From a virus: 64,000 nt of DNA. The stretch lies in IMG/VR virus record IMGVR_UViG_3300046804_001743, positions 1-64,000 of that record, one strand, 5' to 3'. Of this stretch, positions 9,213-27,621 are shown piece after piece. A model generated the notes under the pieces. It had not been told where the DNA came from, did no database searches, and was given only the letters and a program-made list of their open reading frames with translations. Position numbers and translations under genes: made by a program. Numbering within the stretch: position 1 is the first letter of the stretch; every line of letters starts with the position of its first letter.

Positions 9213-9214
9213 AC

Positions 9215-10984: not shown

Positions 10985-11645
10985 GCTTAACTTTGAACCT
11001 TCTTAAATCTAAGTCTTGTAATTCTTCTACTACATGTTCTGCCAGACCAAAAGTAACAACTGTATCCTTATAGGAAAAGTTATCTAATGTACCTTCTTGA
11101 TTCTTGCGATTAAGCCAGGGGCTTATAATTGTATCGAATTGATAACGATAATCAAACTGTTCGTAAGCAGGTGTAATTTCAAAATTTATTAAATTTGTAA
11201 AATGACTATGTTTTAAAGGTTCTCTTACTACTAACTGTTTACGAGCAACACTACCATAATTTCCTGCTGTATGAATTTTATTAGCAAACATATAGCGCCA
11301 ATGCCCGTCTAGACGTTGGTTGTACATTTGCTGTTCTTCTAAGTCTATCAAAAAGGAATGTACTCCTGATAAGTTTAAATGCCAGCGATTGTCTATGTCG
11401 GCATGTGCCATATAACTTTGATTAGGCTCAAGCGTGATGACACGAGCCTCTCCTATTGTATATGGAAGCGTTCCTAAAACCTGCTCCCAAGGAGTACCTC
11501 TATATTCTTCTTTGAGTTCCCATTTATCATAAAAGAAGTTTCCTGTAGGCTTGTTAAGTGCTACACGTTCTCCTTCTAAAGGATGTTCAGTTAAGGCTTG
11601 TTGAATTAACTCTTTTGGGCATTGCCACATGGTTACGTTTATCAT
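10974..11645 (-). CDS. cupin-type oxygenase-like protein
   Basis: AHADIDNRWH ... IHTAGNYGS matches the HxD...HxAGxNxG family signature. Confidence 0.45.
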   Translation of the reverse strand: MINVTMWQCPKELIQQALTEHPLEGERVALNKPTGNFFYDKWELKEEYRGTPWEQVLGTLPYTIGEARVITLEPNQSYMAHADIDNRWHLNLSGVHSFLIDLEEQQMYNQRLDGHWRYMFANKIHTAGNYGSVARKQLVVREPLKHSHFTNLINFEITPAYEQFDYRYQFDTIISPWLNRKNQEGTLDNFSYKDTVVTFGLAEHVVEELQDLDLRRFKVKREH

Positions 11646-11684
11646 GAAATATTTATATGCTACTATAACTCACTTAAATATATC

Positions 11685-12362
11685 ATGGATTTGTATCTAA
11701 ACCCAAAATGGACAAAGATTGGCATCAGCATCAGCGGAGGTGCTGATAGTGCATTATTGGCATTTTTAATATGTTCCAATACCAGTGCTGACATTCATTT
11801 TACAAATCAAATTAGACTTTGGAAAACTCGTCCATGGCAAGAGTATGTAGCCGACAATGTTATTAATTGGTTTAAAGATCGATTCACAAATAATTTTTAT
11901 GTACACAAGAATCTAATACCTCCTGAATTAGAATGGGCTGACAAAGGTCCAACTATAGTTGACGAATATGGAAAGTTAAAAAGTGGTAACCAAATTATAT
12001 TAAGATCCCACAACGAGTACATTGCACACAAATATAACCTAGAAGCGTTATATGGCGGTATTAATAAGAATCCAGATATTGATATCGAAGGATCGTTAGA
12101 TGACAGAAACGAAGGGCATATACCTCCGCACTTTGTACATAACGGTATTGACATTTGTCACCCATTTGTGTATACTAGAAAAGATTGGATAATCAAACAG
12201 TATTACAAACACAACATCTTGGATTTGCTAGAACTCACTCGCAGTTGCGAAGGAGAGTTTGAAGGAATAGATTATACAACTTATACACCTGGACAATATG
12301 TTCCTGTTTGTAAAAAATGTTTTTGGTGCAAGGAAAGAGAATGGGCTCACCAAGGCTTATAA
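11685..12362 (+). CDS. PP-loop ATP pyrophosphatase (QueC/TilS-like adenine-nucleotide alpha hydrolase)
   Basis: KIGISISGGADSALLA is the SGGxDS PP-loop. The start could be upstream (the ORF is open from 11622). Confidence 0.6.
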   Translation: MDLYLNPKWTKIGISISGGADSALLAFLICSNTSADIHFTNQIRLWKTRPWQEYVADNVINWFKDRFTNNFYVHKNLIPPELEWADKGPTIVDEYGKLKSGNQIILRSHNEYIAHKYNLEALYGGINKNPDIDIEGSLDDRNEGHIPPHFVHNGIDICHPFVYTRKDWIIKQYYKHNILDLLELTRSCEGEFEGIDYTTYTPGQYVPVCKKCFWCKEREWAHQGL

Positions 12363-12961
12363 CATTCGGATGCTCATATACATTTGGTCAAGCGTTGCCT
12401 GACACAGATGGGTCATATCCTAGCAACATGGCATGGCCTAAGATATTAGGCAATATGCTAGACAGAAATGTAATTAATAAAGGAAGACCTGGTTCTAGTA
12501 ATCTTGAAATCTTGTTTAGCTTACTAAATTTTTCTTTTAAGAAAGACGATATAGTAGTAATAGGTTGGACTCATGTTAACAGAGATTACATTTTTAATAA
12601 AACTAAAAATATAGCGTTAGGTGCATGGTCGGATGATAACATTTTAAGTAACTGGGTGCAAGTGCATAACGATTACGATTTGTCAGTTAGGTCAGGACTC
12701 TATATACATCATGCAGAATTATTTTTAGATTCGTTAGGAATAAGGCAGTATCATTTTCGAGCAATCGGATCGGCCACTTTTGTAGATAAAATAGTAAATG
12801 CTTTCACAGAAATTAAACCTCTTTATACTAATAAACTTAAACATCAGATAAAGAAAAGAATTTTATACAAAAAAGATCTAGCGTTAGATAATGCCCATCC
12901 GGGAGTAGAATCGCACTTACATGCCGCTAAAGAACTTTACAAGATAATAAATGAACAGTAA
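12341..12961 (+). CDS. SGNH-like hydrolase/acyltransferase, variant GCS motif
   Basis: LITFGCSYTFGQ (block I with Cys in place of Asp) and DNAHPGVESH (block V DxxHP). AAGGAAAGAGA RBS before the ATG. Confidence 0.5.
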   Translation: MGSPRLITFGCSYTFGQALPDTDGSYPSNMAWPKILGNMLDRNVINKGRPGSSNLEILFSLLNFSFKKDDIVVIGWTHVNRDYIFNKTKNIALGAWSDDNILSNWVQVHNDYDLSVRSGLYIHHAELFLDSLGIRQYHFRAIGSATFVDKIVNAFTEIKPLYTNKLKHQIKKRILYKKDLALDNAHPGVESHLHAAKELYKIINEQ

Positions 12962-14210
12962 AACATTTTGTATGCATCCTTTTACAGGATTAGCCACTAG
13001 AGAAGATGGAGCAATTAAAATATGCTGCCGCAGTCAACCTATTGGCTGGATACAGGAACAAAGCCTAGAAGAAGCATGGAACGGCGACAACATGAGACTA
13101 GTTCGCCAGCAGGTACTTTCAAACGAAAGACCAGAGGTATGCAAGCCATGTTTTGATCTTGAAGACCAAGGTGTAGAAAGTTTACGCCAACGTCATATTA
13201 AAGGCGAAATACCAGAAGCAAGGATAAACCTGTATCCACACGCTTTAGAAAAATTACATCCAGAAATGACCATGCCGTTTGAATTTCCTACTATGGAAAT
13301 TAAACTCAACAACTTGTGTAATTTAAAGTGCCGTATGTGTAACCCATTAGACAGCACTAACTGGAAAGATTGGGATTCTGTCGTTCCTTTCTATAAAAAA
13401 GAAAATAACTATCTTGTTCCAACTATAGAAAAATTAGTTAAGACACCTGGGCAATATATTGGCCCGTTTGACGATACAGATAACTGGTGGGCTAGTTTTG
13501 AAAAACTATTGCCGCACTTTAGACGTGTAGAGTTTGCTGGCGGTGAACCGCTAATGGATCCTCAACACTATAAAATTTTAGATATGTTAAAACCTTATGG
13601 TAGCAACATTGAAATTAAGTATGCCACAAACGGCACTACATTAGGAATTAGCAAAGGAAGAACTATTCATGACTACTGGCCTCATTTTAGAAGCGTTGCC
13701 GTTAACGTCAGCATTGACGGCATTCACAATGTTTACAATTACATTCGTGGCAACGGTGACTTTAATCAAGTTGAAGAAAATATTAAAGAAATAAAAAAGA
13801 TACCAAACGTAAGTCGTGTAGTCGGTGCGTTTACAGCACAAGCAGGCAACATACTACAAGCGGCGGCCTGCATTGATTACTTTCTTAACAAGTTAGGCAT
13901 TGTGTTCTATAGTCATAGGGTAAGTTATCCCAATGTACTTTCAGCACAGGTGTTACCTAATGAATTGAAACAAGTAGCAATTAACAGATTGCGAGAAATT
14001 AGTATGCGTGTTTCCACATTTGATATTGTTAAGCAACATCCTATATTAGAAAAAATTACACAACAACAGATACAGGACAATATTAATTACCTACAAGCAA
14101 AAGATGAAAGCCATCGTTGGCAAGAATTTTTAGAATTTAATCGTGCGTTAGATGCTACACGCAACCAAAGCCTTTTAGATACTGTTCCAGAGTTTAAAGC
14201 GTATGTATAA
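12951..14210 (+). CDS. radical SAM enzyme with Cys-rich N-terminal domain
   Basis: FCMHPF...ICCRSQP...CKPCFDLEDQGVESLRQ N-terminal domain, then CNLKCRMC and FAGGEPLMD. Confidence 0.8.
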   Translation: MNSKTFCMHPFTGLATREDGAIKICCRSQPIGWIQEQSLEEAWNGDNMRLVRQQVLSNERPEVCKPCFDLEDQGVESLRQRHIKGEIPEARINLYPHALEKLHPEMTMPFEFPTMEIKLNNLCNLKCRMCNPLDSTNWKDWDSVVPFYKKENNYLVPTIEKLVKTPGQYIGPFDDTDNWWASFEKLLPHFRRVEFAGGEPLMDPQHYKILDMLKPYGSNIEIKYATNGTTLGISKGRTIHDYWPHFRSVAVNVSIDGIHNVYNYIRGNGDFNQVEENIKEIKKIPNVSRVVGAFTAQAGNILQAAACIDYFLNKLGIVFYSHRVSYPNVLSAQVLPNELKQVAINRLREISMRVSTFDIVKQHPILEKITQQQIQDNINYLQAKDESHRWQEFLEFNRALDATRNQSLLDTVPEFKAYV

Positions 14211-15087
14211 AGTTACTAGTCGCTGGCCTCACCAAACAAGCATTAAGGTAGAATGGAACCTTGGCAAACGCTGTAACTACGATTGTAGTTATTGTCCTGC
14301 GGCAATACACGACAACACTAGCCCGCATACTGATATTGAGATACTCAAAAAAACTATTGATAAGTTACAAACATTGGGTAAACCTATACGTCTAAGTTTT
14401 ACAGGCGGGGAGCCTTGTGTACATCCTAAGTTCCAAGAACTAATAACTTATGCAAGGTATAAAAATATTTCTTGGATTAGTGTAACTACAAATGGTACTC
14501 GCCCGTATGAGTTCTATCGTATAATACCAGTTAACCAATGGGTGTTTAGTATACACTTAGAATACGACTGGATGCGTGTAATAAACACATTAACAAAATT
14601 AGCAGACAAAACAAATTTTAAATTAATTGGACAAATTATGGCACATCATGATCATATGGGTTCGGCTAAAATTGTTAAGGGTATGTTAGATCAGTATCAA
14701 ATACCTAATACAGTTAGGCGCATACGTTGGACAGAAGGAGACCATGATTTGTTCGATGATATGCGTTATCATCCAGATGACTTAAACTGGATTAAGGAAC
14801 AGGATGCTACTATATCAGGTAACTGTATAATTGATGATAAAGATGTTATACATAGTAATGACGTTATTAAGCTACACCTAAACAAGTATAAAGACTGGTC
14901 CTGCAATGCAGGCATAGAAAGTTTAATGATTAACTGGGACGGCGAGGTTCATCGTGCTACTTGTCGTGTTGGCGGAAGTTTAGGTAACATATACGACGGC
15001 ACATTTGCCCAACCAGAAGATCCTGTTATATGTACTAGAAATTTTTGTACCTGTGCCGCTGACATACCTATAACAAAATTAAAATGA
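14203..15087 (+). CDS. radical SAM / SPASM-twitch domain enzyme
   Basis: CNYDCSYC and FTGGEPCVHP. C-terminal W.CNAG...CRVGG...C....C.C is a SPASM-like cysteine pattern. Confidence 0.8.
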   Translation: MYKVTSRWPHQTSIKVEWNLGKRCNYDCSYCPAAIHDNTSPHTDIEILKKTIDKLQTLGKPIRLSFTGGEPCVHPKFQELITYARYKNISWISVTTNGTRPYEFYRIIPVNQWVFSIHLEYDWMRVINTLTKLADKTNFKLIGQIMAHHDHMGSAKIVKGMLDQYQIPNTVRRIRWTEGDHDLFDDMRYHPDDLNWIKEQDATISGNCIIDDKDVIHSNDVIKLHLNKYKDWSCNAGIESLMINWDGEVHRATCRVGGSLGNIYDGTFAQPEDPVICTRNFCTCAADIPITKLK

Positions 15088-16181
15088 TTAATACTACTGC
15101 TATAAGACTTAAAACACCCGAGTCCTTAATGGTCACTTGGGATATCATTAGAAGGTGTAATCTAGATTGTACATACTGCGAATCTACACGGCATGACAAT
15201 CGAAGTCCGCTACCTTCTTTAGAGGAATTAATAACTACATTCGACTTTGTAAAAAAATATACTGATTTGTACAATAGCCAGCGTGTTGACAAAATTGGAA
15301 CTAACATCGATTTCACGGGTGGCGAACCGACTATTAATCCTGCGTTCTGGTCTTTGATTGATTACATTAAACAGCATAAAGATTTTAGATTAAGTCTAAC
15401 AACAAACGGTACATGGGGACCTTCATTTACAGAAAAGATATTAGACAACTTTGGCCATGCAACAATTAGTTGGCATGCAGAAGATGCATTAAAAGAACGC
15501 ACAGTTAAAAATATTCTAGATTTGCATGAGGCTAATATTGGGTTACAGGCTAATGTAATGTTGCATTGTGACTACTTTGATGAAGCAACTGCTCTATGTG
15601 AAATGTTTCGAGACAAAGGAATTAAAGTAAATCCAGTACCTATCGGCGATGGTAACTTAGTTCGTAAGGGGTGGTTTATTGATGCCGATGGTACTAACAG
15701 AAGAACCAGTCATGAGTATACAGAAAAACAACAGGATTGGTTTTACAATTGGATGGGGCAACCTAGAAAGGCCACGGCATCAGCAGAAGGAACTAATGTA
15801 GGGAGAGCTTGCTGTGGTGGTAGATGCACACAGGGGCTAGTTAACGGAGAGTGGCAAGAAGTTAAATTAGTTAACAATTGGTTTAAAGATTGGTACTGTA
15901 CTGTTAATTGGTATTTCTTGCACATTGAACAAAACACAGGAAAAGTTTTCCATCATCAAACTTGTCAGGCAACACATACTGGTAGGGGGCCAATTGGAAA
16001 TCTTAACAACACAGAGTCTATTCTCAGCAACGTCAGAGAGATGTTGTCAGGCTCAGTTAAACCTATTGTATGTCCTAATCAGAGATGTGGTTGCGGAATG
16101 TGTGTACCAAAAGCCAAAGACATTAGCGTGTTTAAAGAGCTTTGGAGTTCTACTACAACTATACCGATTTTATTGGAATAA
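15084..16181 (+). CDS. radical SAM / SPASM domain enzyme
   Basis: CNLDCTYC and FTGGEPTINP. Many C-terminal cysteines (CCGGRC...CPNQRCGCGMC). Confidence 0.8.
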   Translation: MINTTAIRLKTPESLMVTWDIIRRCNLDCTYCESTRHDNRSPLPSLEELITTFDFVKKYTDLYNSQRVDKIGTNIDFTGGEPTINPAFWSLIDYIKQHKDFRLSLTTNGTWGPSFTEKILDNFGHATISWHAEDALKERTVKNILDLHEANIGLQANVMLHCDYFDEATALCEMFRDKGIKVNPVPIGDGNLVRKGWFIDADGTNRRTSHEYTEKQQDWFYNWMGQPRKATASAEGTNVGRACCGGRCTQGLVNGEWQEVKLVNNWFKDWYCTVNWYFLHIEQNTGKVFHHQTCQATHTGRGPIGNLNNTESILSNVREMLSGSVKPIVCPNQRCGCGMCVPKAKDISVFKELWSSTTTIPILLE

Positions 16182-17133
16182 ATTTAGAAATTTGTATTTC
16201 GCCGCCGCACATACAAACATCTTTGTTACACACGATTGATGTAATCTTAGGTTTAAATTTATTTACAAACTCTGGATCGTAAATGTTGTAGTGAAATGCT
16301 TCGTTGTAGATTTTTTGTTTACAAGTACCAGCAATAACACCGTCCTGAAACACCTCTATGTAATCTACACCAAGGTTACAATTCCATCCTTTGAACCTAT
16401 TTAGGTTATTTAAGAATAGCCAGTTATCTTCGACTAAAGTTTTCTTCCCATCGATAACAGCCCACAGCCTTCTGCGTTTACTTACTTTTAAACTGAACCA
16501 CCAAAATAAATTAGGCCAGCGTTTTAATTGTACAGAAAGATATTTCATCTGTTCTTCGTCATGCAAAGACTGGCCGTTGATCTGCACAGCCTTAGCAACT
16601 ATAGGCCAACGCTTTTTACTTTTTCGTAACTGTTCAATTAGACCTTTACATTTGTCAAATGCAAACGGATCCATTAGCACATTAGCTACTATATTGTTCT
16701 TGTTAGTATACAAAAAGTCAGCAACTTCTATAATGTGATCTATCTTTGCGTATTCGTGGTGTACAGATATTTCAACTACATCAAAGCAGTTAGCATTTTC
16801 TTGCCACCAGTTTAATTTCCTTGTTGCATTTGTAGATATTTTAATTATGACATCATAGTTGGCTTTTAGGTGATTACAAAATTTTGGCAGGTCTTTCCAT
16901 AATGTAGTTTCGCCACCAATGATAAAAAATTCAAATTTATTCTTTCCCTGTTGCTTGTATGTGTTAAGCAAGTGATCAAAGTTCTTGATAAGTAAATCAA
17001 CGTCCGGCCATGGAACATTACCTTCATTACTTCCCGGAAAACAATAGTGGCACTTATAATTACAAAGGTTGCCGGGCATGTATTCGATCCTAAGTAGGTC
17101 AGGTTCGTCGTTATTAATAATCTGTGTAATCAT
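16159..17133 (-). CDS. radical SAM / SPASM-twitch domain enzyme
   Basis: CNYKCHYC and IIGGETTLW. C-terminal WNCNLG...C...CNKDVCMCGG. Its 3' end overlaps the convergent 15084 gene by 23 nt. Confidence 0.8.
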   Translation of the reverse strand: MITQIINNDEPDLLRIEYMPGNLCNYKCHYCFPGSNEGNVPWPDVDLLIKNFDHLLNTYKQQGKNKFEFFIIGGETTLWKDLPKFCNHLKANYDVIIKISTNATRKLNWWQENANCFDVVEISVHHEYAKIDHIIEVADFLYTNKNNIVANVLMDPFAFDKCKGLIEQLRKSKKRWPIVAKAVQINGQSLHDEEQMKYLSVQLKRWPNLFWWFSLKVSKRRRLWAVIDGKKTLVEDNWLFLNNLNRFKGWNCNLGVDYIEVFQDGVIAGTCKQKIYNEAFHYNIYDPEFVNKFKPKITSIVCNKDVCMCGGEIQISKFIPIKSV

Positions 17134-18512
17134 AATAGATGTGCTAGTTCCGGAAATATTTCTTTGAAAGAAGTACCACGCAACTTATCTAATCTCTCTA
17201 TATACTCTTTAAATGCTAGCAATTGACTGCTATGATCTTCAGCATCCATAAAGTCTAATACTGCTTGCCATCGCTTCCAACCATATGGATTCTTTTTCCA
17301 GAAGTCTTCATCTTGCCTATAATTTTCGTATAACCAATTAGCTAGCTCGGCAAAACTTCTACGGACTTCTGCTTTATCCTCTGCAGGTAAACATCTAATG
17401 CTTAGGAATGTTGGAATATACAACAAGTGCATATTGACAATTCCGCCGCCTGCTTGGATACCGCCCGTTACATTTTCTAAGTTAATCTTCTTAAAATTCT
17501 GTGTAATTTTCCACTTGGCAAAATCTGCTAAATGCTTGATGTTTAAAATTTGTATAGCAGTAGCAATTGATACTTGTATATTGTCAGGAGTGTTATCTAA
17601 CTTATGTAAATTCTTTTCAATGGTATTCCAATCACTAGGGTAGCGAATGTAATAGTTGCGGTCACCTACTGCGTCTATGCTAAAACCAACTTTAACTTTT
17701 TTAAACTGTTTCCAGAGATCAATAATTTCGTCGTCAACAAGCAATCCGTTTGTGTTATATCTTACAAGTATTTTGTCTGCATATCCTTGCCTGATAATTT
17801 CCTCTAAGAACCACTTATGTTCTCTAATCATTAATGGTTCGCCACCGGCAAAGTATACTTGTTTTAAGTTTGGAATCTGTGCATACATTTCTTTCCAGAA
17901 GTCTGGATTCTCATGCCAGAAATTATTAAAGTCTTTTCGATCCCATTGCATCTGTTCTTTAAGTTCTTTGGCTTGGAATAAAGGGTAAATCTTTTTATGA
18001 TCTGCTACCCATTGACTACTATCATGTGGACTGCACATAACACACTTTAAATTGCAAGTGTGCCCTAAACGCAAATCTAAGTAAACAAGTTTTTCTGGTA
18101 CTGTGCCATCTTCTTGTGTTTGGGTGATGAGCTCAGGAATATCAATTCCTTCTTCCATCCAGGACCCTGTTTCCCAGATGCGCTTGCTAGCAACACCTTT
18201 TGATTCTTCAGCAATACACTTACTACAACTAGCAGGAATTTTTCCTTCTAGCATAGTCAAACGTACATCACGCATATATTCATTATTCCATGCGCTCATA
18301 GGAGTTTCTTTGCCGAAGTTAGCAGGAACTCCTTTTTCATTTTTAACTAAACCCACTGTATGGTTTTCACCTGCTCCACTGGCATTGGCACTACAGCATA
18401 GTCGCATGTCTCCATTTGGCCGTGTGGCAAAGTGTATCCATGGCAATATGCAGAAAGTTTTGCTTCCTGATGCGGCTTCAATTTTATCTTGCCAGTGCTT
18501 AATTGTGTTCAT
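17130..18512 (-). CDS. radical SAM enzyme with Cys-rich N-terminal domain
   Basis: TFCILPW...LCCSANAS...CSKCIAEESKGVASKR, then CNLKCVMC and FAGGEPLMI. Confidence 0.8.
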   Translation of the reverse strand: MNTIKHWQDKIEAASGSKTFCILPWIHFATRPNGDMRLCCSANASGAGENHTVGLVKNEKGVPANFGKETPMSAWNNEYMRDVRLTMLEGKIPASCSKCIAEESKGVASKRIWETGSWMEEGIDIPELITQTQEDGTVPEKLVYLDLRLGHTCNLKCVMCSPHDSSQWVADHKKIYPLFQAKELKEQMQWDRKDFNNFWHENPDFWKEMYAQIPNLKQVYFAGGEPLMIREHKWFLEEIIRQGYADKILVRYNTNGLLVDDEIIDLWKQFKKVKVGFSIDAVGDRNYYIRYPSDWNTIEKNLHKLDNTPDNIQVSIATAIQILNIKHLADFAKWKITQNFKKINLENVTGGIQAGGGIVNMHLLYIPTFLSIRCLPAEDKAEVRRSFAELANWLYENYRQDEDFWKKNPYGWKRWQAVLDFMDAEDHSSQLLAFKEYIERLDKLRGTSFKEIFPELAHLL

Positions 18513-19110
18513 TTTGTGTACCAATTATCATAAATCTTTTATATAAAGGCAGTTCTAATTCGCCTGCCCATAGGACATGAATGCCGCATTGTGTTTTAAA
18601 TTCTTCTAAGTCTTTAGCGATACGAACATGTTCTGGTATGTTGTAATTATTACTTTGTAATACTAGCAGGCTGTTGTGAGGATGCCCACTTAACCATTCT
18701 TCGTACTGTTCCTGTGTTATGTGTTCGCAACTGGTATTGATAATAATATCAGCATCACTACGCATAGTACACATATCGGCGGTTACTGCACGAAACCTTC
18801 CTGATTCAAATTCCATTTGATTCATACGGTTAGCAATCGCTTCACAGTCTGGATCAATGTCAATACTTCTAATGTTGTTAACAAAAAGCTCACTTTGAAA
18901 TATAAGGCTTGCTAGTGTCCCCACCCAGCCACCGTGAATATCAATGCTAGGCCAAGTTTTAAAATTACCTCGTTGTTTAACTAATTCTTTAATGAGCCAT
19001 TCCTTACTGCTCATTTGTCCTCGCCAGAAAGCATCAAGGGTCCGCATAGGGTCCTTGCTCTCACGGATGGCACACATCCAATGATGTAGGTGTTCTGTAT
19101 CAACTAACAA
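18499..19110 (-). CDS. putative SAM-dependent methyltransferase
   Basis: IDIHGGWVGTLA (glycine-rich motif I-like) followed by IRSIDIDPD (acidic motif II-like). Confidence 0.4.
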   Translation of the reverse strand: MLVDTEHLHHWMCAIRESKDPMRTLDAFWRGQMSSKEWLIKELVKQRGNFKTWPSIDIHGGWVGTLASLIFQSELFVNNIRSIDIDPDCEAIANRMNQMEFESGRFRAVTADMCTMRSDADIIINTSCEHITQEQYEEWLSGHPHNSLLVLQSNNYNIPEHVRIAKDLEEFKTQCGIHVLWAGELELPLYKRFMIIGTQNEHN

Positions 19111-20077
19111 ATTGTGCTCCTAGTTTATCAAACTTGCCGCATTGTTTACTGCATTCTATTAAAGGCTTTACTGCCCATGTGTCTTCTATCTTTTTAAAGA
19201 ATCCTAGATTAAAGATTTCTTCTAGTGTATTTTGTGTTAGGCTAGGAAATATCCCTATGGCATCCATATACTCAACACGATTATCTTGGTTAGGCAGTTG
19301 CCAAGAAAAGTCTAACCAACAGCAAGGACTTACTATGCCGTTAGCACTAATATAAATCTGTTTGTACTTTTGTGCCTTACATTGTATCTCAGCAGACTCA
19401 ATGTTTATTACCTTAGGCGTGTAACTTTTACTAATTTCTGTAGGATATAAAATGTGTGTGGTCTTGCCCGACTCGTCTAATACATTAAATTTTCCATCTT
19501 TAAAACGGCTAGTGTGTTTTACTTGGAAATGTTTAAATCCTAATAGTTGGCTCATTTCCCTGCAGATGTCTACCTCATTTTCGTTATGTTCAAACACTAG
19601 CATATCCCAAGTTGCTTCACCACCTGCTTTAATAAACAATTTTGCGTTGTCTAAAATCTTAACCCAGTCAGTGCCCACACGATACAATGCGTGTGTGTTA
19701 ATTAATCCATCTATACCAAACCTAACTTGTACACCCACGGCTGCGAGCCCCTTCCAGAACTGCCAGCTTCTGGCACTTCCGTTAGTATTCATGCTTAAAC
19801 GAATTGTAGGATTTGTTTCTCTCAAGTACTGAAATATTTTTAGACAATCTTGTGCTATAATAGGATCACCTAAATTGCCGCACATAAACAAACTGTCTAA
19901 CTGTTTTATAAAACTAACAGGGAACCATTCTTTAAATTGCTCTAGGGTTATTTCATTTAACGACATAAGAGGATTAATGGGACCACCATTGATGCGGCGT
20001 GGACACATTGGACAACGTGCTTGGCACTTGCTAGTCAATTCTAAGTGTACGTCTCTAATATCTTCTAGTTTATACAT
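19100..20077 (-). CDS. radical SAM enzyme (Cys-rich C-terminus)
   Basis: CQARCPMC near the N-terminus and GNLGDPI. C-terminal CCW...C...C cysteines. Confidence 0.75.
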   Translation of the reverse strand: MYKLEDIRDVHLELTSKCQARCPMCPRRINGGPINPLMSLNEITLEQFKEWFPVSFIKQLDSLFMCGNLGDPIIAQDCLKIFQYLRETNPTIRLSMNTNGSARSWQFWKGLAAVGVQVRFGIDGLINTHALYRVGTDWVKILDNAKLFIKAGGEATWDMLVFEHNENEVDICREMSQLLGFKHFQVKHTSRFKDGKFNVLDESGKTTHILYPTEISKSYTPKVINIESAEIQCKAQKYKQIYISANGIVSPCCWLDFSWQLPNQDNRVEYMDAIGIFPSLTQNTLEEIFNLGFFKKIEDTWAVKPLIECSKQCGKFDKLGAQFVS

Positions 20078-21024
20078 TTTGGTATTTTACTGTCCGCCGA
20101 ACTTACGCAGGTTGGTGTAATACAGCGTTGAGGTTGTTTAAATAATTTAAAGTTATCTAATGTGCCTAATAGTTCGTCATGGCAGCTATAACTTCTTTTA
20201 ACCTCATTACCTCTTATTATAACACTCTGATAGCCTGCATTGCAAGCCCATCCTTGGAATTTGTTAAATCCAAAGGCATTAAATCTTTCTGCTTGATCTA
20301 ACAAGTGCTCTGTGCCATTTGCTTCATATAGAGCTATTTGGTAAACATCTTCACCATTGGCTCTTTGTGGAAAACCTGTACGCATTTTGTGTATCATATC
20401 CTCAGTATAACCGTCAACTACTGCACTAGCAGTTTCGTTACTTTGTGGCTTTAGTGTTACATTGATTCCTCTATCGTGTAACCTCTGCATACGGTCATAC
20501 AATTCATAAAATTTTTCAGGAACCATAACTTGGTTTACTGTAACAAATACACCCTTATCTATTAAGTAAATAATCTTATCACCAAACTCTGTTTCGTCAG
20601 CAAACTCGTGATGGAAACTGGCAGTAAGGCTTCTACGCCTGCTTAACGATGTACCAGCTAGCCACCTATCCCACCATTGGATCCCAGGACTAAGGTTAGT
20701 AGTCATATGAATACTGTCATAGAAAACTTTGGACATTAGCTCAATTGAGTGTTTGTATGCGGTAGGTTCACCTCCGCTGAAACTCCAGTGAAATTGGACA
20801 AATCCATTTTGGGCGGCTTGAAATCGTATTTCGTCTATTGTTCTTTTATAAACTTCGAGCTCTTGATGATCTGGTGTTTGGCTATTAGCATAAGGCCAAC
20901 AATAGCTACATTTATAGTTACAAAATCTACCCAAAATCCAACTCACTGAGAAAATTTGGTCGTTGAGCATAGTTCGTTGTCCAAAACGAACGATCTTTTG
21001 GAATGGTATGGTTGCAAAGCTCAT
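20065..21024 (-). CDS. radical SAM / SPASM-twitch domain enzyme
   Basis: CNYKCSYC and FSGGEPTAY. C-terminal WACNAGY...C...C..C. Probable ATG at 21024 (the ORF track starts at a GTG, 21030). Confidence 0.8.
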   Translation of the reverse strand: MSFATIPFQKIVRFGQRTMLNDQIFSVSWILGRFCNYKCSYCWPYANSQTPDHQELEVYKRTIDEIRFQAAQNGFVQFHWSFSGGEPTAYKHSIELMSKVFYDSIHMTTNLSPGIQWWDRWLAGTSLSRRRSLTASFHHEFADETEFGDKIIYLIDKGVFVTVNQVMVPEKFYELYDRMQRLHDRGINVTLKPQSNETASAVVDGYTEDMIHKMRTGFPQRANGEDVYQIALYEANGTEHLLDQAERFNAFGFNKFQGWACNAGYQSVIIRGNEVKRSYSCHDELLGTLDNFKLFKQPQRCITPTCVSSADSKIPKCIN

Positions 21025-21052
21025 TGACACTATTTACAAACGGATATATAAT
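21024..21052 (+). promoter_or_regulatory. sigma70-consensus promoter (TTGACA-17nt-TATAAT)
   Basis: TTGACA at 21024-21029 and TATAAT at 21047-21052 with a 17-nt spacer. The predicted TSS (about 21059) coincides with the start of the tRNA-like element. Confidence 0.6.
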
Positions 21053-21058
21053 TATGCT

Positions 21059-21177
21059 GTAGACGTGAGTGGAACTTGGTATACCTCCCCCGGCAGTATG
21101 TAACAAACTACTGTTGGGGGGCTAAGGCCTAGCCCATAGTGGCGGCTTTGCAGGTTCAAATCCTGCCGTCTACACCA
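21059..21177 (+). ncRNA. tRNA-like element (canonical acceptor stem, T-arm and CCA; non-canonical 119-nt body)
   Basis: 5' GTAGACG pairs perfectly with 3' CGTCTAC, followed by A-CCA. T-arm GCAGG-TTCAAAT-CCTGC. U8 is present. The body instead forms a long hairpin CCCCCGGCAG/CTGTTGGGGG with a 14-nt loop, plus a second hairpin GGGCTA-AGGCC-TAGCCC. It is too long for a standard tRNA. Confidence 0.4.
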
Positions 21178-21185
21178 TTTTAACT

Positions 21186-21200
21186 ACACACTGAGGCACA
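21186..21200 (+). promoter_or_regulatory. conserved 5' leader / RBS motif ACACACTGAGGCACA (copy 1)
   Basis: Identical 15-mer also at 27607-27621. In both places it sits immediately before the ATG, with GAGG 5 nt upstream. Confidence 0.5.
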
Positions 21201-21201
21201 A

Positions 21202-21528
21202 ATGAAAAAGGCACTTTTTGGTTTATTGTTTATTGCTACCGCAGTACAGGCAGGTATGGAAAAAGATGCGTATGAGAAATACGACATGACCAATCTGAAG
21301 ACTGATCAATCTCTTATTAAGATTGTTACAGTTGACGATGTCAAGGCCGCTTGTAATAGACTGCGTGTAAGCGAAGGTCTCAAACCATTTACCTTTAGTG
21401 TTGAAGCCTGTAGTGTTTGGCCTAAGGACGGATCCTTTAAGAGCTGTACAGTCTACATTGGAAAGAAAACTAACAACGACATCCTTGGTCACGAAATCCG
21501 TCATTGCTTTGTAGGCAACTTTCACTAA
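21202..21528 (+). CDS. small secreted protein with C-terminal HExxH-like motif
   Basis: Signal peptide MKKALFGLLFIATAVQA. C-terminal GHEIRHCFVGNFH. Confidence 0.5.
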   Translation: MKKALFGLLFIATAVQAGMEKDAYEKYDMTNLKTDQSLIKIVTVDDVKAACNRLRVSEGLKPFTFSVEACSVWPKDGSFKSCTVYIGKKTNNDILGHEIRHCFVGNFH

Positions 21529-22079
21529 TGTCTAAAGTATCATCAAGCCCGGACCGAAACACTTTCCAAAAAGAAGCATATCTAGAACGATGTGCCAAAG
21601 ATGGTAAAGAGCCTAGTAAGGCATACCTTGAAATGTGGGAAAACACAGCCAAGCAACACGCAGAATGGGCAGAGAAAGAACATAAGAACGACATGGAGTA
21701 CGACCTTCGTACCTGTGAATGGATGCTAGACAAAGTGCGCCAAAGCGATACCTACGCCCAAAACCTATACGCGGCCATGTGTAATATGACTTGGCAAAGC
21801 CGTGAGTTTTGGCAAGAACTAAAAGGTGAAACTTGGTCTTGCTCTTGGAGATATGCTGGCGGTATAATTGCTGACATGCGTCAAGAGGGTGATTACATTG
21901 ATTGGTACTGTTCAGGTATGGGCGGACTCAATCAAGAGTACGAGGGTGAAGAAACTAACGAAGAATGGCAAAAGCGTACAGGTTATGTTCCTGAAGGTTT
22001 TGTAACTGATGAAATCGAATTAGACCTTAACCGCTTGGGTTGGAGACCAGTTCCTTATGACGACGACAAATTAACTTAA
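21528..22079 (+). CDS. hypothetical protein
   Basis: ORF starting at the TAATG overlap (MSKVSSS...). Trp/Cys-rich. Confidence 0.45.
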   Translation: MSKVSSSPDRNTFQKEAYLERCAKDGKEPSKAYLEMWENTAKQHAEWAEKEHKNDMEYDLRTCEWMLDKVRQSDTYAQNLYAAMCNMTWQSREFWQELKGETWSCSWRYAGGIIADMRQEGDYIDWYCSGMGGLNQEYEGEETNEEWQKRTGYVPEGFVTDEIELDLNRLGWRPVPYDDDKLT

Positions 22080-22089
22080 TAAATAAAAG

Positions 22090-22272
22090 ATGGAAAATAA
22101 AGAACAATTCGTTTTTACCGCAGAGGATATTTTTGAAGAAATCCCAGGAGATCCAGAAAATGTCAGAATGAAATTTCCCGAAGAAGTTTTAAAACTTACA
22201 GGTTGGAAAGAAGGTGATGTGCTAGATATTGAAGTCAAAGACGGAAAGATCGTTGTAACAAAACATGAGTAA
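22090..22272 (+). CDS. AbrB/SpoVT (swapped-hairpin) domain-like small protein
   Basis: EVLKLTGWKEGDVLDIEVKDGKIVVTK resembles the AbrB/MazE/SpoVT domain. Overlaps infA by 8 nt. Confidence 0.45.
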   Translation: MENKEQFVFTAEDIFEEIPGDPENVRMKFPEEVLKLTGWKEGDVLDIEVKDGKIVVTKHE

Positions 22273-22483
22273 AGACGACATCATCGAACTCACAGGCACA
22301 GTTGAAGAAGTTTTACCTGGTAACATGTTTAGAGTAAAGGCTGATAATCTTGATACAGTTTTGCTCTGCTACATGGGTGGTAAATTGAAGCAACACAAGA
22401 TTAGAATAATCTTAGGCGATAAGGTAAAGATGGAGGTTAGTCCATATGACCTTACAAAAGGTAGAGTAACTTATAGGTTGTAA
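22265..22483 (+). CDS. infA: translation initiation factor IF-1 homolog
   Basis: 72 aa. Aligns along its full length to bacterial IF-1 (S1-like OB fold): TGTVEEVLPGNMFRV...IRIILGDKV..PYDLTKGRV, which is my recollection of E. coli IF-1 GTVLETLPNTMFRV...IRILTGDKV..PYDLSKGRI. Confidence 0.85.
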   Translation: MSKDDIIELTGTVEEVLPGNMFRVKADNLDTVLLCYMGGKLKQHKIRIILGDKVKMEVSPYDLTKGRVTYRL

Positions 22484-24643: not shown

Positions 24644-25199
24644 GGCTGTAGACTTCAAAATTACCGGCGGTAGTGAATACACTTGGGACTGTTTTGGCCC
24701 CAACGCTCGATATTTAGACTGTGCCGATAACGAAGGTTATAATGGAACTTATAGCATTAATGCCGTTTTTGATAGTGTAACACAAGAGGTATACACTATT
24801 GAAGTTTGGGACTATGTTAATGATCGAGAATATCGTTGGATCGATAAAGCATACATTAAAGATCACATGAAAGCATGTGCTAAACACGAAGTAGACCTAT
24901 ACGAGTCTATGGATGGACGCAACTATATCGACTTAGATTTGGCAGAAGACATTTTGGAAAAAGCTAATGCTTTAGTTAACGGTGTCCAATACGATACTCG
25001 TGTCAAAGTACCGGTTGACTTTACTGATGAAGAACTGCTAAAATATATGAAAATGGCGCACGAACGTGATATGACCTTTAACCAATTTGTTGAAGAAGCA
25101 TTGCGTTTTGCAATTGAAGAACATCAAGCTGGGCATTTAACTAAAGAAGATGCTCAGAAATTTATAAGAGAACGAAATGAAAATCACCCTAGCATCTGA
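24603..25199 (+). CDS. hypothetical protein
   Basis: ORF only. Confidence 0.4.
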   Translation: MRTLIMALIKDFIEAVDFKITGGSEYTWDCFGPNARYLDCADNEGYNGTYSINAVFDSVTQEVYTIEVWDYVNDREYRWIDKAYIKDHMKACAKHEVDLYESMDGRNYIDLDLAEDILEKANALVNGVQYDTRVKVPVDFTDEELLKYMKMAHERDMTFNQFVEEALRFAIEEHQAGHLTKEDAQKFIRERNENHPSI

Positions 25200-26031
25200 T
25201 CTCCATTTAGAGTTTACAGACTGCTACGACCTTAAGAACGAGAACAACGCCGATGTGTTGATTCTCTCTGGTGATATCATGATTGCCGAGGATCTCTACG
25301 ACCATCCTGTCGTTCCTAGTATTTACGAGTACGGTTCATTTGCTGAACTGGGTCGTAAGCAAAAGCGTGTACAAACATTCCGTGATTTCCTAAAACGCAT
25401 GAGCAATACATTTGCTAATGTTATCTATGTTGCTGGCAACCACGAATTCTATCACGGTAAATGGGTCAAGGGTATTGAGTATCTCCGTCAGGAATGTTCT
25501 CAGTTGCCTAACGTTCATTTCTTAGAACGTGATTGTGTTAAAATACAAGATGTTACCTTTGTCGGTGGCACCTTGTGGACTAACATGAACAAGGGCGATC
25601 CACTGACACTTCATGCCGTTCGCGACATGATGAACGACTTCCGTATCATTCGTAACGACGAAAAAGGTTACACCCAACTCAAGCCGCATGATACTGTTGT
25701 TCGTCACAAACAAACACTTGAATATATTCGTAGTGTTGTTGCTGAAAAGCATGACGAAAAGTTTGTTGTTGTAGGACATCACAGTCCAAGTTTCCAAAGC
25801 ATACACGAATCGTATAAACACGAAACTTTAATGAACGGTGCTTACCACAGCGACTTGAGTGAGTTTATTTTAGATCATCCACAGATTAAACTGTGGACAC
25901 ACGGTCACACCCATCACTGTTTTGATTACACGATAGGTGAAACTCGTGTTGTGTGTAACCCACGTGGCTATGTAAGCGATGGTTATAGTGAAGACACCGG
26001 ATGGAATCCTAATATTATTTTGGAGGTATAA
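25177..26031 (+). CDS. calcineurin-like metallophosphoesterase
   Basis: Motifs D.H (DLHLE), GDIMIAED, VAGNHEFYHG, GHHSP and GHTHH. Confidence 0.75.
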   Translation: MKITLASDLHLEFTDCYDLKNENNADVLILSGDIMIAEDLYDHPVVPSIYEYGSFAELGRKQKRVQTFRDFLKRMSNTFANVIYVAGNHEFYHGKWVKGIEYLRQECSQLPNVHFLERDCVKIQDVTFVGGTLWTNMNKGDPLTLHAVRDMMNDFRIIRNDEKGYTQLKPHDTVVRHKQTLEYIRSVVAEKHDEKFVVVGHHSPSFQSIHESYKHETLMNGAYHSDLSEFILDHPQIKLWTHGHTHHCFDYTIGETRVVCNPRGYVSDGYSEDTGWNPNIILEV

Positions 26032-26226
26032 ATGAGTAACGAAAATCTAGTCCCCCCTGTTCAACCCACAGTAGTTGAAATGGTAAAACTAACAGGTGCT
26101 AATACAGCCCAATTTATGGAACAAGTTGCAATCCATATCGAAAAACTTGAAGCTGAAGTTGTTCGGCTAACTAATCGTGTTCAAGAACTAGAAGGTCAAA
26201 ATGGAACAAGTCCTGCAACTGAATGA
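26032..26226 (+). CDS. small coiled-coil protein
   Basis: 64-aa ORF with a heptad-like LEAEVVRLTNRVQELE segment. Confidence 0.35.
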   Translation: MSNENLVPPVQPTVVEMVKLTGANTAQFMEQVAIHIEKLEAEVVRLTNRVQELEGQNGTSPATE

Positions 26227-26500
26227 AAAGGAATTAAGACTTTTCAAAAGGTGGCTTAAAGGTCATTTGGCTTTTGGGCCTGTTAAGGTAACTTTTGTAA
26301 AGAAGGACGGTACTGAGAGAGTGATGGAGTGTACTACTGCTCCATCGCTTGTACCTCAAGAACCTGTTGTTGAAGACATCTCTCCTAAAAGAGAAAAGAA
26401 AATCAACGAAGATGTTTGTCCAGTTTACGACATTGAATCGCAAGGGTGGCGTAGTTTCCGTTGGGATAGTATTAAACAAGTAAGATTGGAAATAAAATGA
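26201..26500 (+). CDS. hypothetical protein
   Basis: ORF only. Confidence 0.35.
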   Translation: MEQVLQLNEKELRLFKRWLKGHLAFGPVKVTFVKKDGTERVMECTTAPSLVPQEPVVEDISPKREKKINEDVCPVYDIESQGWRSFRWDSIKQVRLEIK

Positions 26501-27562: not shown

Positions 27563-27591
27563 TTGACATTTGACTAAGGTCACTGTATAAT
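27563..27591 (+). promoter_or_regulatory. sigma70-consensus promoter (TTGACA-17nt-TATAAT)
   Basis: TTGACA at 27563-27568, 17-nt spacer, TATAAT at 27586-27591. Followed by the conserved leader motif. Confidence 0.6.
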
Positions 27592-27606: not shown

Positions 27607-27621
27607 ACACACTGAGGCACA
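27607..27621 (+). promoter_or_regulatory. conserved 5' leader / RBS motif ACACACTGAGGCACA (copy 2)
   Basis: Identical to 21186-21200. Precedes the ATG at 27626. Confidence 0.5.

What the first reader, a model, noticed from the sequence alone, without database searches (positions are those of the whole stretch)
21024..21204. Consensus promoter firing directly into a 119-nt tRNA-like element ahead of a conserved leader
A perfect TTGACA-17-TATAAT promoter predicts a TSS at about 21059. That is exactly the 5' end of an RNA with a perfect 7-bp acceptor stem, U8, a canonical T-arm (GCAGG-TTCAAAT-CCTGC), discriminator A and encoded CCA. Its body is non-canonical: a long 10-bp GC hairpin with a 14-nt loop, a second hairpin, and an overall length of 119 nt. 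It could be an unusual tRNA, a tRNA-like processing signal (an RNase P/Z substrate defining the mRNA 5' end), or something else. The same leader 15-mer follows the second consensus promoter at 27563. The - strand radical SAM gene starts at 21024, so this is also a divergent control region.
Basis: seen in the sequence. Interest (0 to 1): 0.7.

Follow-up and report, generated by a model that had tools for sequence, protein, structure and literature searches.

The report
Leaderless anticodon-less tRNA-Leu mimic RNA
An uncultured, probably large phage makes, as the first product of a strong early promoter, a conserved 119-nt tRNA-shaped RNA that keeps every feature known to let E. coli leucyl-tRNA synthetase charge tRNA-Leu but has no anticodon loop, so it is a tRNA mimic rather than a decoding tRNA, and its role is unknown.

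Summary
A perfect TTGACA-17-TATAAT promoter (21024-21052) places the start site on G21059. That is nucleotide 1 of a 119-nt tRNA-like RNA ending in ACCA at 21177.

It belongs to a large family found only in uncultured phage contigs:
- I collected 84 distinct copies, 95-119 nt long. There were none in 185,579 bacterial and archaeal genomes, none among 50,697 deposited phage records, and no Rfam family.
- Covariation is strong: 17 of 27 pairs show compensatory changes, and 96.8% of cells are paired against about 45% in slid controls.
- In all 84 copies, exactly 6 nt separate the -10 box from nucleotide 1. A73 is invariant and CCA is encoded in 83 of 84.
- The arm where the anticodon arm should be is hypervariable, from 4 bp plus a tetraloop up to 13 bp. 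It cannot decode.
- The invariant parts are A73, A15:U48, G18G19, A20a and the T-loop. This is the published E. coli LeuRS identity set, and LeuRS does not need an anticodon arm.
- The family model scores tRNA-Leu as the best or second-best real tRNA in all four phage tRNA sets tested.

Best reading: a trans-acting tRNA-Leu mimic that needs no RNase P and is probably chargeable. It heads an early operon that also encodes phage IF1. Its target is unknown. A cis-acting 5' mRNA module remains the main rival.

The parts
21024..21029 (+). -35 hexamer TTGACA; its first base overlaps the ATG of the minus-strand radical SAM gene
   Evidence: In the family the -35 box is TTGACA in 57 of 84 members and TTGACT in 22 of 84.
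21047..21052 (+). -10 hexamer TATAAT after a 17-nt spacer
   Evidence: The spacer is 17 nt in 83 of 84 members, and the -10 box ends exactly 6 nt before nucleotide 1 in 84 of 84.
21059..21177 (+). The tRNA-like RNA (119 nt), from the predicted transcription start G1 to the encoded CCA
   Evidence: Scores 106.3 bits against family model R1; the next best hit in the window is 9.7 bits.
21059..21065 (+). 5' strand of the 7-bp acceptor stem (GTAGACG)
   Evidence: Pairs with 21167-21173. Five of the 7 pairs show compensatory changes in the family and 99% of cells are paired.
21066..21086 (+). U8 plus the D-arm-like block UGAGUGGAACUUGGUAUACCU. It contains A14, A15, G18G19, U20 and A20a. The D stem is irregular, with only two Watson-Crick pairs and one covarying 13:22 pair.
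   Evidence: Invariant in 35-36 of 36 distinct copies retrieved through the neighbouring protein, not through the RNA sequence. The 13:22 position covaries: G:U 43, U:A 21, C:G 1, G:G 19.
21087..21120 (+). Long hairpin in the anticodon-arm position: 12 pairs plus the 10-nt loop UGUAACAAAC. There is no 7-nt anticodon loop.
   Evidence: More than 40 different versions occur among 84 family members, including plain UUCG or CUUG tetraloop hairpins.
21125..21148 (+). Long two-part variable arm: a 4-bp helix, a UA bulge, then a 4-bp helix with a small loop
   Evidence: Both helices show compensatory changes: pair 72:90 in 46 sequences and pair 78:86 in 35 sequences.
21149..21149 (+). U48, the predicted partner of A15 (Levitt pair)
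   Evidence: Invariant in A1 (T91 of the element) and in 37 of 37 sequences of A3.
21150..21166 (+). T-arm: GCAGG / UUCAAAU / CCUGC
   Evidence: Three of 5 pairs show compensatory changes and 100% of cells are paired. U54, U55, C56 and A58 are invariant.
21167..21173 (+). 3' strand of the acceptor stem (CGTCTAC)
21174..21177 (+). Discriminator A73 and the encoded CCA
   Evidence: A73 is present in 84 of 84 members and CCA in 83 of 84.
21178..21201 (+). U-rich linker (UUUU 21178-21181) and the ordinary early-gene leader, with the ribosome-binding site GAGG at 21193-21196. This is the predicted site of 3' processing.
   Evidence: T occupies positions +1 to +4 after the CCA in 58, 74, 77 and 71 of 84 members. 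The same 15-mer leader occurs at 27607 directly after another promoter.
21202..21528 (+). First gene of the operon: a 108-aa protein with a signal peptide, four invariant Cys and a C-terminal GHExxHCxxGxxH
   Evidence: This family follows the element in 68 of 84 members.
22265..22483 (+). Phage-encoded translation initiation factor IF1, in the same operon. It is context, not part of the RNA.
   Evidence: TIGR00008 infA scores 92.2 bits against a cut-off of 61. A homologue lies 0.7-2.8 kb downstream on the same strand in 88 loci.
20065..21024 (-). Divergent radical SAM gene that abuts the promoter. It is context, not part of the RNA.
   Evidence: Pfam Radical_SAM. A homologue lies directly upstream in 103 loci, including the L009 subclade. 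It has no tRNA-modifying signature.

Best explanation
This is a stand-alone RNA gene for a tRNA-Leu mimic that has no anticodon.

Proposed sequence of events:
1. Host sigma-70 RNA polymerase starts exactly at nucleotide 1. This is inferred from the promoter geometry. The mature 5' end is therefore made by initiation and needs no RNase P.
2. The RNA folds into a class-II tRNA shape: acceptor stem, T-arm, D-loop/T-loop elbow and a long variable arm. This is shown by covariation.
3. Its 3' end is freed at the encoded CCA by cleavage or trimming in the U-rich linker. This step is inferred.
4. The free RNA cannot read codons, because the arm in the anticodon position is a variable plain hairpin. 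This is shown.
5. It keeps the whole set of features that E. coli LeuRS needs, and LeuRS ignores the anticodon arm. I therefore predict that the host LeuRS charges it and that it acts in trans, very early in infection, on tRNA-handling machinery.

The likeliest roles are:
- a decoy or sponge for host factors that attack or sense tRNA bodies, variable arms or CCA ends;
- a leucine carrier that the ribosome cannot consume.

The target itself is not identified.
For: Real structured RNA:
- 84 distinct homologues were collected. 17 of 27 pairs show compensatory changes. 96.8% of cells are paired against 32-54% with slid partners, and 0 of 500 shuffles reach the observed value.

Not a decoder:
- The anticodon-position arm has more than 40 forms, from 12 to 34 nt, some of them plain tetraloop hairpins.
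- With introns allowed, ARAGORN calls only 30 of 84 members, with ten different identities and three unassigned. It calls none in the window.
- Rfam tRNA scores 26.3 bits against a gathering score of 29 on the shortest variant, and gives no separate tRNA hit for the window copy, where the best match of the tRNA/tmRNA clan is 5.9 bits.

Leaderless:
- Exactly 6 nt lie between the -10 box and nucleotide 1 in 84 of 84 members, and the spacer is 17 nt in 83 of 84.

Leucine-like:
- A73 is present in 84 of 84. A14/A15, U48, G18G19, U20-A20a, U54, U55, C56 and A58 are invariant, including in the 36 copies retrieved without reference to the RNA sequence.
- These are the E. coli LeuRS determinants. tRNA-Leu lacking the anticodon arm is still charged (Giege and Eriani 2023, PMC9976931, read).
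- Model R1 ranks tRNA-Leu as the best or second-best real tRNA in four sets. T4: Leu 33.9 bits, Ser 26.6. T5: Leu 35.4, His 29.9. L016: Leu 34.0. L108: a 94-nt class-II tRNA 32.8, then Leu 29.8.

An independent cassette rather than a leader of one gene:
- It precedes the HExxH gene, an Hc1 gene, an orf191 homologue, a cupin and an AAA_33 kinase.
- 17 of 80 HExxH loci show no match to the element at all. In those examined the gene follows a plain promoter or a decayed copy (L177). An 18th locus (L167) keeps only the 3' half.
- The leader after the CCA equals the leader that directly follows another promoter.

Other support:
- The consensus promoter implies early, high expression by the host polymerase.
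- The element occurs only in phage contigs: 0 hits in genome contigs.
- Background for the decoy idea: defence nucleases do cut class-II tRNA variable loops, and phages answer by overproducing tRNA (PMC13096335).
Against: - There is no expression, end-mapping or charging data. The phages are uncultured and the host is unknown.
- The D stem is irregular. It has one extra nucleotide and only two Watson-Crick pairs plus the covarying 13:22 pair. This could hinder LeuRS.
- The identity rules come from E. coli and may differ in the real host.
- The invariant +1 position and the constant presence of an ORF 13-61 nt downstream (13-45 nt in all but one copy) are also what a cis-acting 5' mRNA element would show.
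- Most copies come from one phage clade with conserved gene order. Linkage to IF1 or to the radical SAM gene is therefore not independent evidence.
- No partner protein was identified in the operon.
Confidence: 0.5

Rival explanations
1. It is a cis-acting 5' module of the early mRNA. The tRNA-shaped fold stays attached. Its base-paired 5' end protects the transcript from 5'-end-dependent decay, or it sets the processing or translation of the operon.
For: - The element begins exactly at the predicted +1 in 84 of 84 members. That is where a protective 5' stem must sit (established knowledge on 5'-terminal stem-loops in E. coli mRNAs, from memory).
- An ORF follows 13-61 nt after the CCA in 83 of 84 members; none was found within 90 nt in L080.
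- No terminator-like site lies between the element and the gene.
Against: - A mere stabiliser would not need invariant A73-CCA, T-loop, G18G19 and A15:U48.
- The downstream gene family also exists without the element.
- The same leader works without it at 27563.
- The element precedes unrelated genes.
Confidence: 0.25
2. It is a processive antitermination RNA of the HK022 put type. The nascent structured RNA, made right after an early promoter, binds the transcribing polymerase and lets it read through a long operon.
For: - It lies immediately after a strong early promoter at the head of a long run of + strand genes, from 21 kb to about 54 kb.
Against: - The conserved features are those of a tRNA (acceptor stem, T-loop, CCA, elbow), not two put-like hairpins.
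- Real tRNAs are its nearest sequence and structure relatives.
- Four other consensus promoters in the window lack the element.
Confidence: 0.05
3. It is a true decoding tRNA with an odd or intron-bearing anticodon arm, for example a suppressor or a Sec-type tRNA.
For: - ARAGORN short variants as tRNAs, and 30 of 84 members when introns are allowed.
- Rfam tRNA scores 26.3 bits on the shortest variant.
Against: - The called anticodons are inconsistent (Pro, Arg, Ala, His, Val, SeC, Gln, Ser, Thr, Leu). They rest on mismatched stems where a 7-bp stem with a UUCG loop is far more stable.
- Arm length varies from 12 to 34 nt.
- Window ORFs read normally in the standard code.
- The 3:70 pair is A-U or G-C, so there is no alanine or tmRNA identity.
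Confidence: 0.03
4. It is a decaying tRNA pseudogene or a chance fold with no function.
For: - Decayed or truncated copies exist (L177, L167).
Against: - There are compensatory changes in all four testable helices.
- There are invariant loops and an invariant promoter distance.
- Hundreds of contigs carry the element.
Confidence: 0.02

Closest known systems
tRNA-like stable RNAs of phages T4 (rnaC, rnaD) and T5 (RNA1, RNA2, RNA3)
   Same: Both are phage-encoded RNAs of about 70-145 nt, and several of them are annotated as tRNA-like. They are made by the host polymerase, do not decode, and their function is listed as unknown in the genome records. T4 rnaC has a T-arm and an acceptor-like stem. 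T4 rnaD is also 119 nt.
   Different: - They are not homologous to this family. R1 gives 15.7 bits for rnaC, no hit for rnaD, and 16.1 and 14.2 bits for T5 RNA1 and RNA2, against 88-121 bits for family members.
- They lie inside tRNA clusters and, from memory, are cut out of polycistronic precursors by RNase P.
- This family has its own promoter with the start at nucleotide 1, an encoded CCA and the leucine identity set.
Bacterial and phage tRNA-Leu (class II tRNA)
   Same: It shares the 7-bp acceptor stem, A73, the D-loop AAYUGGUA(D)A, A15:U48, a long variable arm and the T-loop. tRNA-Leu is the best-scoring or second-best real tRNA for the family model.
   Different: - It has no anticodon stem-loop.
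- The D stem is irregular, with an extra nucleotide.
- The variable arm is longer and two-part.
- Length is 95-119 nt.
- Real tRNA-Leu scores at most 35 bits against the model, compared with 88 bits or more within the family.
- It has no 5' leader.
Aminoacylatable tRNA-like structures at the 3' ends of plant RNA virus genomes
   Same: Both are viral RNAs that mimic the acceptor/T half and elbow of a tRNA without decoding, and that host synthetases can charge (PMC7749636 abstract; details from memory).
   Different: Those structures are 3'-terminal parts of RNA genomes with pseudoknotted acceptor stems and Val, His or Tyr identity. This one is a DNA-phage transcript's 5'-terminal unit, with a normal acceptor helix and leucine-type determinants.
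tmRNA tRNA-like domain
   Same: Both have an acceptor stem, a T-arm and a CCA, and neither has an anticodon.
   Different: There is no G3:U70, no tag reading frame and no pseudoknots. ARAGORN's tmRNA search is negative. Rfam tmRNA scores 5.9 bits against a gathering score of 47.
Leaderless tRNA genes of Nanoarchaeum equitans (from memory; not checked here)
   Same: The promoter is placed so that transcription starts at tRNA nucleotide 1, which makes RNase P unnecessary.
   Different: Those are ordinary decoding tRNAs of an archaeon. This is a bacterial-type sigma-70 promoter in front of a non-decoding mimic.

Membership tests
Canonical decoding tRNA | 7-bp acceptor stem, 5-bp T stem, 7-nt T loop UUCRANY | tested here: met
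Canonical decoding tRNA | 5-bp anticodon stem with a 7-nt loop carrying a conserved anticodon | tested here: not met
   In the window the arm is 12 pairs with a 10-nt loop. Across the family the arms are 12-34 nt, in more than 40 forms, some with tetraloops.
Canonical decoding tRNA | Regular 3-4-bp D stem | tested here: not met
   Only A10-U and G11-C plus the covarying 13:22 pair, with an extra nucleotide on the 5' side.
Canonical decoding tRNA | Detected by ARAGORN and by Rfam RF00005 at the gathering score | tested here: not met
   No ARAGORN gene in the window. No Rfam hit at gathering thresholds. The shortest relative scores 26.3 bits, below the gathering score of 29.
E. coli-type leucine identity set (LeuRS substrate) | Discriminator A73 | tested here: met
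   84 of 84 members. The requirement is taken from PMC9976931.
E. coli-type leucine identity set (LeuRS substrate) | A15:U48 Levitt pair, G18G19 and A20a in the D loop | tested here: met
   The bases are invariant at the corresponding positions. The tertiary pairs themselves are inferred.
E. coli-type leucine identity set (LeuRS substrate) | T-loop partners U54:A58, U55 and C56 | tested here: met
   UUC and A58 are invariant.
E. coli-type leucine identity set (LeuRS substrate) | Actual leucylation by LeuRS | not testable with these tools
   Needs an in vitro charging assay or an acid-gel northern blot.
tmRNA | G3:U70 alanine identity, tag ORF, pseudoknots | tested here: not met
   The 3:70 pair is A-U in 59, G-C in 23 and G-U in 2 members. 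ARAGORN tmRNA is negative. Rfam tmRNA scores 5.9 bits.
T4 rnaC/rnaD and T5 RNA1/2/3 | Sequence and structure homology | tested here: not met
   16.1 bits or less with model R1.
Rfam DUF2693 RNA (RF02956) | Score at or above the gathering threshold of 81.3 bits | tested here: not met
   17 bits, E = 0.41, partly driven by the TTGACA box.
Plant-virus 3' tRNA-like structure | 3'-terminal position in an RNA genome, with a pseudoknotted acceptor arm | tested here: not met
   It is the 5'-terminal unit of a DNA-phage transcript and has a plain 7-bp acceptor helix.

The most novel reading that the evidence does not exclude
The RNA is charged with leucine by the host LeuRS, or at least binds tRNA-handling enzymes as tRNA-Leu does, and the ribosome cannot use it. 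The phage makes it within seconds of entry, with no translation and no RNase P step. It would serve one of three purposes:
- to soak up host immune nucleases or toxins that attack tRNA variable arms or CCA ends;
- to feed a non-ribosomal leucyl-transfer reaction;
- to help the co-encoded phage IF1 take over translation.

That would be a new class of RNA-only phage effector. It would also give a first function for the tRNA-like RNAs of phages such as T4 and T5, which their genome records still list as of unknown function.
Probability: 0.3. Interest if true: 0.85.

Novelty: new variant of a known kind. Interest (0 to 1): 0.68.

Why it matters
- The genome records of T4 and T5 annotate tRNA-like stable RNAs and still list their function as unknown.
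- This family is large and has strong comparative signal. That signal separates what must be kept (acceptor end, elbow, leucine determinants, variable arm, exact start site) from what is free to vary (the whole anticodon arm).
- It therefore yields a sharp, cheap prediction: an anticodon-less RNA that LeuRS charges.
- The promoter is a consensus sigma-70 promoter, so the locus can probably be tested directly in E. coli even though the phages are uncultured.
- Practical point: ARAGORN mislabels the short variants as tRNA-Pro, tRNA-Arg, tRNA-Gln, tRNA-Ser or tRNA-Leu. This can distort tRNA counts and codon-usage arguments in viral metagenomics.

Tried and rejected
- **Rfam:** no hit at gathering thresholds. 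The weak hits (Plastid-ycf2, DUF2693, NsiR1) are chance or driven by the T-arm or the promoter.
- **Deposited phages:** blastn of the window locus against 50,697 records found nothing. The commonest variant hit only T-arm segments of real tRNAs.
- **Bacterial and archaeal genomes:** the D-block pattern gave 0 hits.
- **Second copy:** none in the window.
- **T4 and T5 stable RNAs, PA5oct ncRNA001 and ncRNA002:** not related.
- **Primer hypothesis:** no site in the window is complementary to the 3' terminal 10-18 nt.
- **Terminator after the element:** none found.
- **Protein-coding reading:** rejected. Lengths of close relatives differ by non-multiples of three.
- **Host inference from phage IF1:** failed. 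It is 49-59% identical to IF1 from many phyla.
- **Host or lineage inference from DNA ligase and a 404-aa protein:** only about 32-34% identity, to SPO1-like and PA5oct-like phages.
- **A tRNA-modifying role for the adjacent radical SAM gene:** no MiaB, TYW1, RlmN or QueE-type assignment.
- **Fold of the downstream HExxH protein:** confident model, but no PDB match.
- **Leaders after the other consensus promoters:** not notably structured.
- **Literature:** full-text searches found no description of this family.
- **Single-sequence MFE folds:** uninformative for the D region.
Full report
**1. The observation**

Reading the window confirms the coordinates:
- -35 TTGACA at 21024-21029, a 17-nt spacer, -10 TATAAT at 21047-21052.
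- G21059 lies 7 nt after the -10 box.
- GTAGACG (21059-21065) pairs perfectly with CGTCTAC (21167-21173).
- U8 is at 21066.
- The T-arm is GCAGG/TTCAAAT/CCTGC (21150-21166).
- The discriminator A is at 21174 and CCA at 21175-21177. The total is 119 nt.

The second hairpin is a two-part long variable arm (21125-21148).

The shared 15-mer occurs at 21186 and 27607 and contains the ribosome-binding site. The minus-strand radical SAM ATG is 21024-21022.

Several tests place the feature above chance:
- The window has five perfect consensus promoters on the + strand against 0.09 expected.
- It has a single GGTTCRANTCC.
- The element is G+C-rich, 0.54 against 0.38 for the window.
- It folds better than all 200 shuffles, with z = -3.75.

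ARAGORN finds no tRNA in the window, and Rfam finds nothing at gathering scores.

**2. It is a family**

The downstream 108-aa protein has relatives in IMG/VR. The same RNA sits upstream of those relatives, with compensatory changes.

It hit none of the 185,579 bacterial and archaeal species genomes. blastn found no member among 50,697 deposited phage records.

I extracted 84 distinct full-length copies, 95-119 nt long. I aligned them as A1 and tested the cloverleaf-like structure, with these results:
- 17 of 27 pairs have changes on both sides.
- 96.8% of cells are paired, against 32-54% when the 3' partners are slid.
- 0 of 500 shuffles reach the observed value.
- The acceptor stem (5 of 7 pairs), the T stem (3 of 5), both helices of the variable arm and the base of the long hairpin all covary.

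Model R1, built from A1, finds one copy in the window at 106 bits. The next hit scores 9.7 bits.

The carrying contigs reach 259-345 kb, so at least some of these phages are jumbo phages. The nearest cultured relatives of two window proteins are only about 32-34% identical.

**3. What varies and what does not**

The arm in the anticodon position is the variable part. More than 40 versions occur among 84 sequences:
- CCAG-CUUG-CUGG;
- a 7-bp stem capped by UUCG, UUUG or UUAG;
- longer irregular hairpins, about 35 of which have a UAGUA/GAAC internal loop. From memory, this matches the loop-E/S-turn consensus;
- the 12-pair version in the window.

Near-identical phages differ in the distal part of this arm (L093 versus L094). 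No consistent 7-nt anticodon loop exists. ARAGORN's calls are mutually inconsistent and rest on mismatched stems.

To avoid the bias of my own search pattern, I retrieved loci through the protein instead. There were 347 relatives, of which 80 were kept. Of these, 62 carry the element 25-30 nt upstream, at 88-121 bits.

In the 36 distinct copies from that set, these features are invariant or nearly so:
- the block U8-GAGUG-K-AA-Y(N)-UGGUA-D-ACCUCC;
- U48;
- UUC and A58 of the T loop;
- A73 and CCA.

One position pair in the D region covaries: G:U 43, U:A 21, C:G 1, G:G 19. The D stem is otherwise irregular.

**4. The start site**

In all 84 members the -10 hexamer ends exactly 6 nt before nucleotide 1. 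The spacer is 17 nt in 83 of 84. The hexamers are consensus or one base off in almost all members.

Ordinary tRNA genes have no such constraint. Here the mature 5' end must be made by initiation, so RNase P has nothing to remove. After the CCA comes a U-rich run, with T at +1 to +4 in 58-77 of 84 members. The phage's ordinary early-gene leader follows.

**5. Which tRNA it resembles**

I scored real tRNA sets with R1:

| tRNA set | Best real tRNA | Next |
|---|---|---|
| T4 cluster | tRNA-Leu, 33.9 bits | Ser, 26.6 |
| T5 | tRNA-Leu, 35.4 bits | His, 29.9 |
| L016, family-carrying contig | tRNA-Leu(UAA), 34.0 bits | - |
| L108, family-carrying contig | a 94-nt class-II tRNA, 32.8 bits | Leu(UAG), 29.8; two tRNA-Ser, 27.6 and 27.0 |

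The D loops align as GGAAYUGGUA(D)AC.

The review by Giege and Eriani (PMC9976931) makes these statements for E. coli:
- A73 is crucial.
- The anticodon and the long variable arm are not crucial.
- A15:U48, G18G19, A20a and the D-loop/T-loop pairs G18:U55, G19:C56 and U54:A58 are essential.
- tRNA-Leu variants lacking the anticodon arm remain active.

Every one of these bases is invariant in the family. That is the basis for predicting leucylation. It is a prediction, not a result.

**6. Cis or trans**

The element is followed by the HExxH gene in 68 of 84 copies. In the rest it is followed by one of these:
- an Hc1 histone-like gene;
- a homologue of window ORF 21504-22079;
- a cupin;
- an AAA_33 kinase.

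More distant HExxH genes have a plain promoter and no element. One locus keeps only the 3' half (L167) and one holds a decayed copy (L177).

The element therefore behaves as a separate cassette inserted between a promoter and a standard leader. This favours an RNA gene over a gene-specific leader. It does not exclude a general 5' stabiliser, because that model also predicts the strict +1 position.

**7. Context**

The operon headed by the RNA encodes a genuine IF1. An IF1 gene lies 0.7-2.8 kb downstream on the same strand in 88 loci. Phage IF1 genes have been reported in huge phages as candidates for redirecting host translation (PMC7162821).

The divergent radical SAM gene is adjacent in 103 loci and in both main subclades. 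It shows no tRNA-modifying signature.

Most copies come from one syntenic clade, so these linkages are weak evidence for a functional tie. In three contigs the element lies 2-4 kb downstream of a tRNA cluster. This recalls the placement of the T4 and T5 stable RNAs.

**8. Mechanism and rivals**

My best explanation, at confidence 0.5, is a trans-acting, non-decoding tRNA-Leu mimic.

- Shown: the structure, the lack of an anticodon loop, the conserved determinants, and the promoter geometry.
- Inferred: the start at G1, release at the CCA, charging, and the target.

The decoy idea draws on recent evidence that a defence system cuts the variable loop of a class-II tRNA and that phages escape by making more of that tRNA (PMC13096335). 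Nothing here ties this RNA to a particular defence system.

The rivals are:
- a cis-acting 5' module (0.25);
- a put-like antiterminator (0.05);
- a true tRNA (0.03);
- a pseudogene (0.02).

**9. Comparison and novelty**

The closest known kind is the set of tRNA-like stable RNAs of T4 and T5, whose functions the genome records list as unknown. This family is not homologous to them (16 bits or less). It differs from them in these ways:
- it has its own promoter with a +1 start;
- it encodes the CCA;
- it carries the leucine determinant set;
- its anticodon arm is free to vary.

It fails the tests for canonical tRNA, tmRNA, plant-virus tRNA-like structures and Rfam DUF2693. I found no description of it in Rfam 15 or in the searched literature. 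I rate it a new variant of a known kind, with interest 0.68.

Noticed in passing
window 22265-22483 (+): The phage encodes a translation initiation factor IF1 (infA equivalog, 92 bits against a cut-off of 61) in the operon headed by the tRNA-like RNA. A homologue lies 0.7-2.8 kb downstream on the same strand in 88 related loci. It is 49-59% identical to IF1 from many phyla, so it gives no host signal.
   Followed up: partly
window 21202-21528 (+): A small secreted protein family of about 100-117 aa, with four invariant Cys and a C-terminal GHExxHCxxGxxH. It has 347 relatives in IMG/VR, all unnamed. The AlphaFold model is confident (pLDDT 85.7), but Foldseek finds no PDB match (best E = 0.15).
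   Followed up: partly
window 4522-21024, 36342-37733 and 45980-47491: The window holds an unusual number of radical SAM genes: eleven with radical SAM matches, nine of them between 4.5 and 21 kb. Three (4522-5739, 12951-14210, 17130-18524) pass the cut-off of NCBIfam NF033640, twitch-domain radical SAM protein. Their substrates are unknown.
   Followed up: partly
window 21024, 27563, 28565, 32435, 51386 (+): Five perfect TTGACA-N16/17-TATAAT promoters, all on the + strand (0.09 expected). Only the first is followed by the RNA. The leaders after 28565 and 51386 are not notably structured.
   Followed up: yes
L025 7128-7223, L050 4647-4745, L072 2972-3070, L122 806-904 and others: ARAGORN calls the short (95-101 nt) family members tRNA-Pro(ggg), Arg(tcg), Gln(ttg), Leu(tag) or Ser(gct). 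This is a likely source of false tRNA annotations in viral metagenomes.
   Followed up: yes
L167 about 1416-1479; L177 about 1300-1470: Degenerate copies upstream of intact HExxH genes. L167 keeps only the 3' half, directly after a TATAAT box. L177 is a decayed version with a broken T stem.
   Followed up: partly
alignment A1 columns 34-59 (for example L094 8177-8287): About 35 of 84 anticodon-position arms carry a UAGUA/GAAC internal loop. From memory, this resembles the loop-E or sarcin-ricin S-turn motif, a common protein-binding module.
   Followed up: no
L009, L016, L022, L065, L111, L126 (downstream of the element): In one subclade the gene after the element is a 63-65-aa histone H1-like protein (Pfam Hc1). 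In L016 and L022 of that subclade the element lies 3.5-4 kb downstream of a tRNA cluster, and in L108 about 2 kb downstream.
   Followed up: partly
L108 12423-12516 (-): A 94-nt class-II-like tRNA called Ile(tat) by ARAGORN. It is the second-best non-family hit of the model over the three contigs L016, L022 and L108, and the best real tRNA in L108 (32.8 bits).
   Followed up: no
window 26201-26500 and 25177-26031 (+): A WYL_2-domain protein and a calcineurin-like phosphoesterase lie in the same early operon.
   Followed up: no
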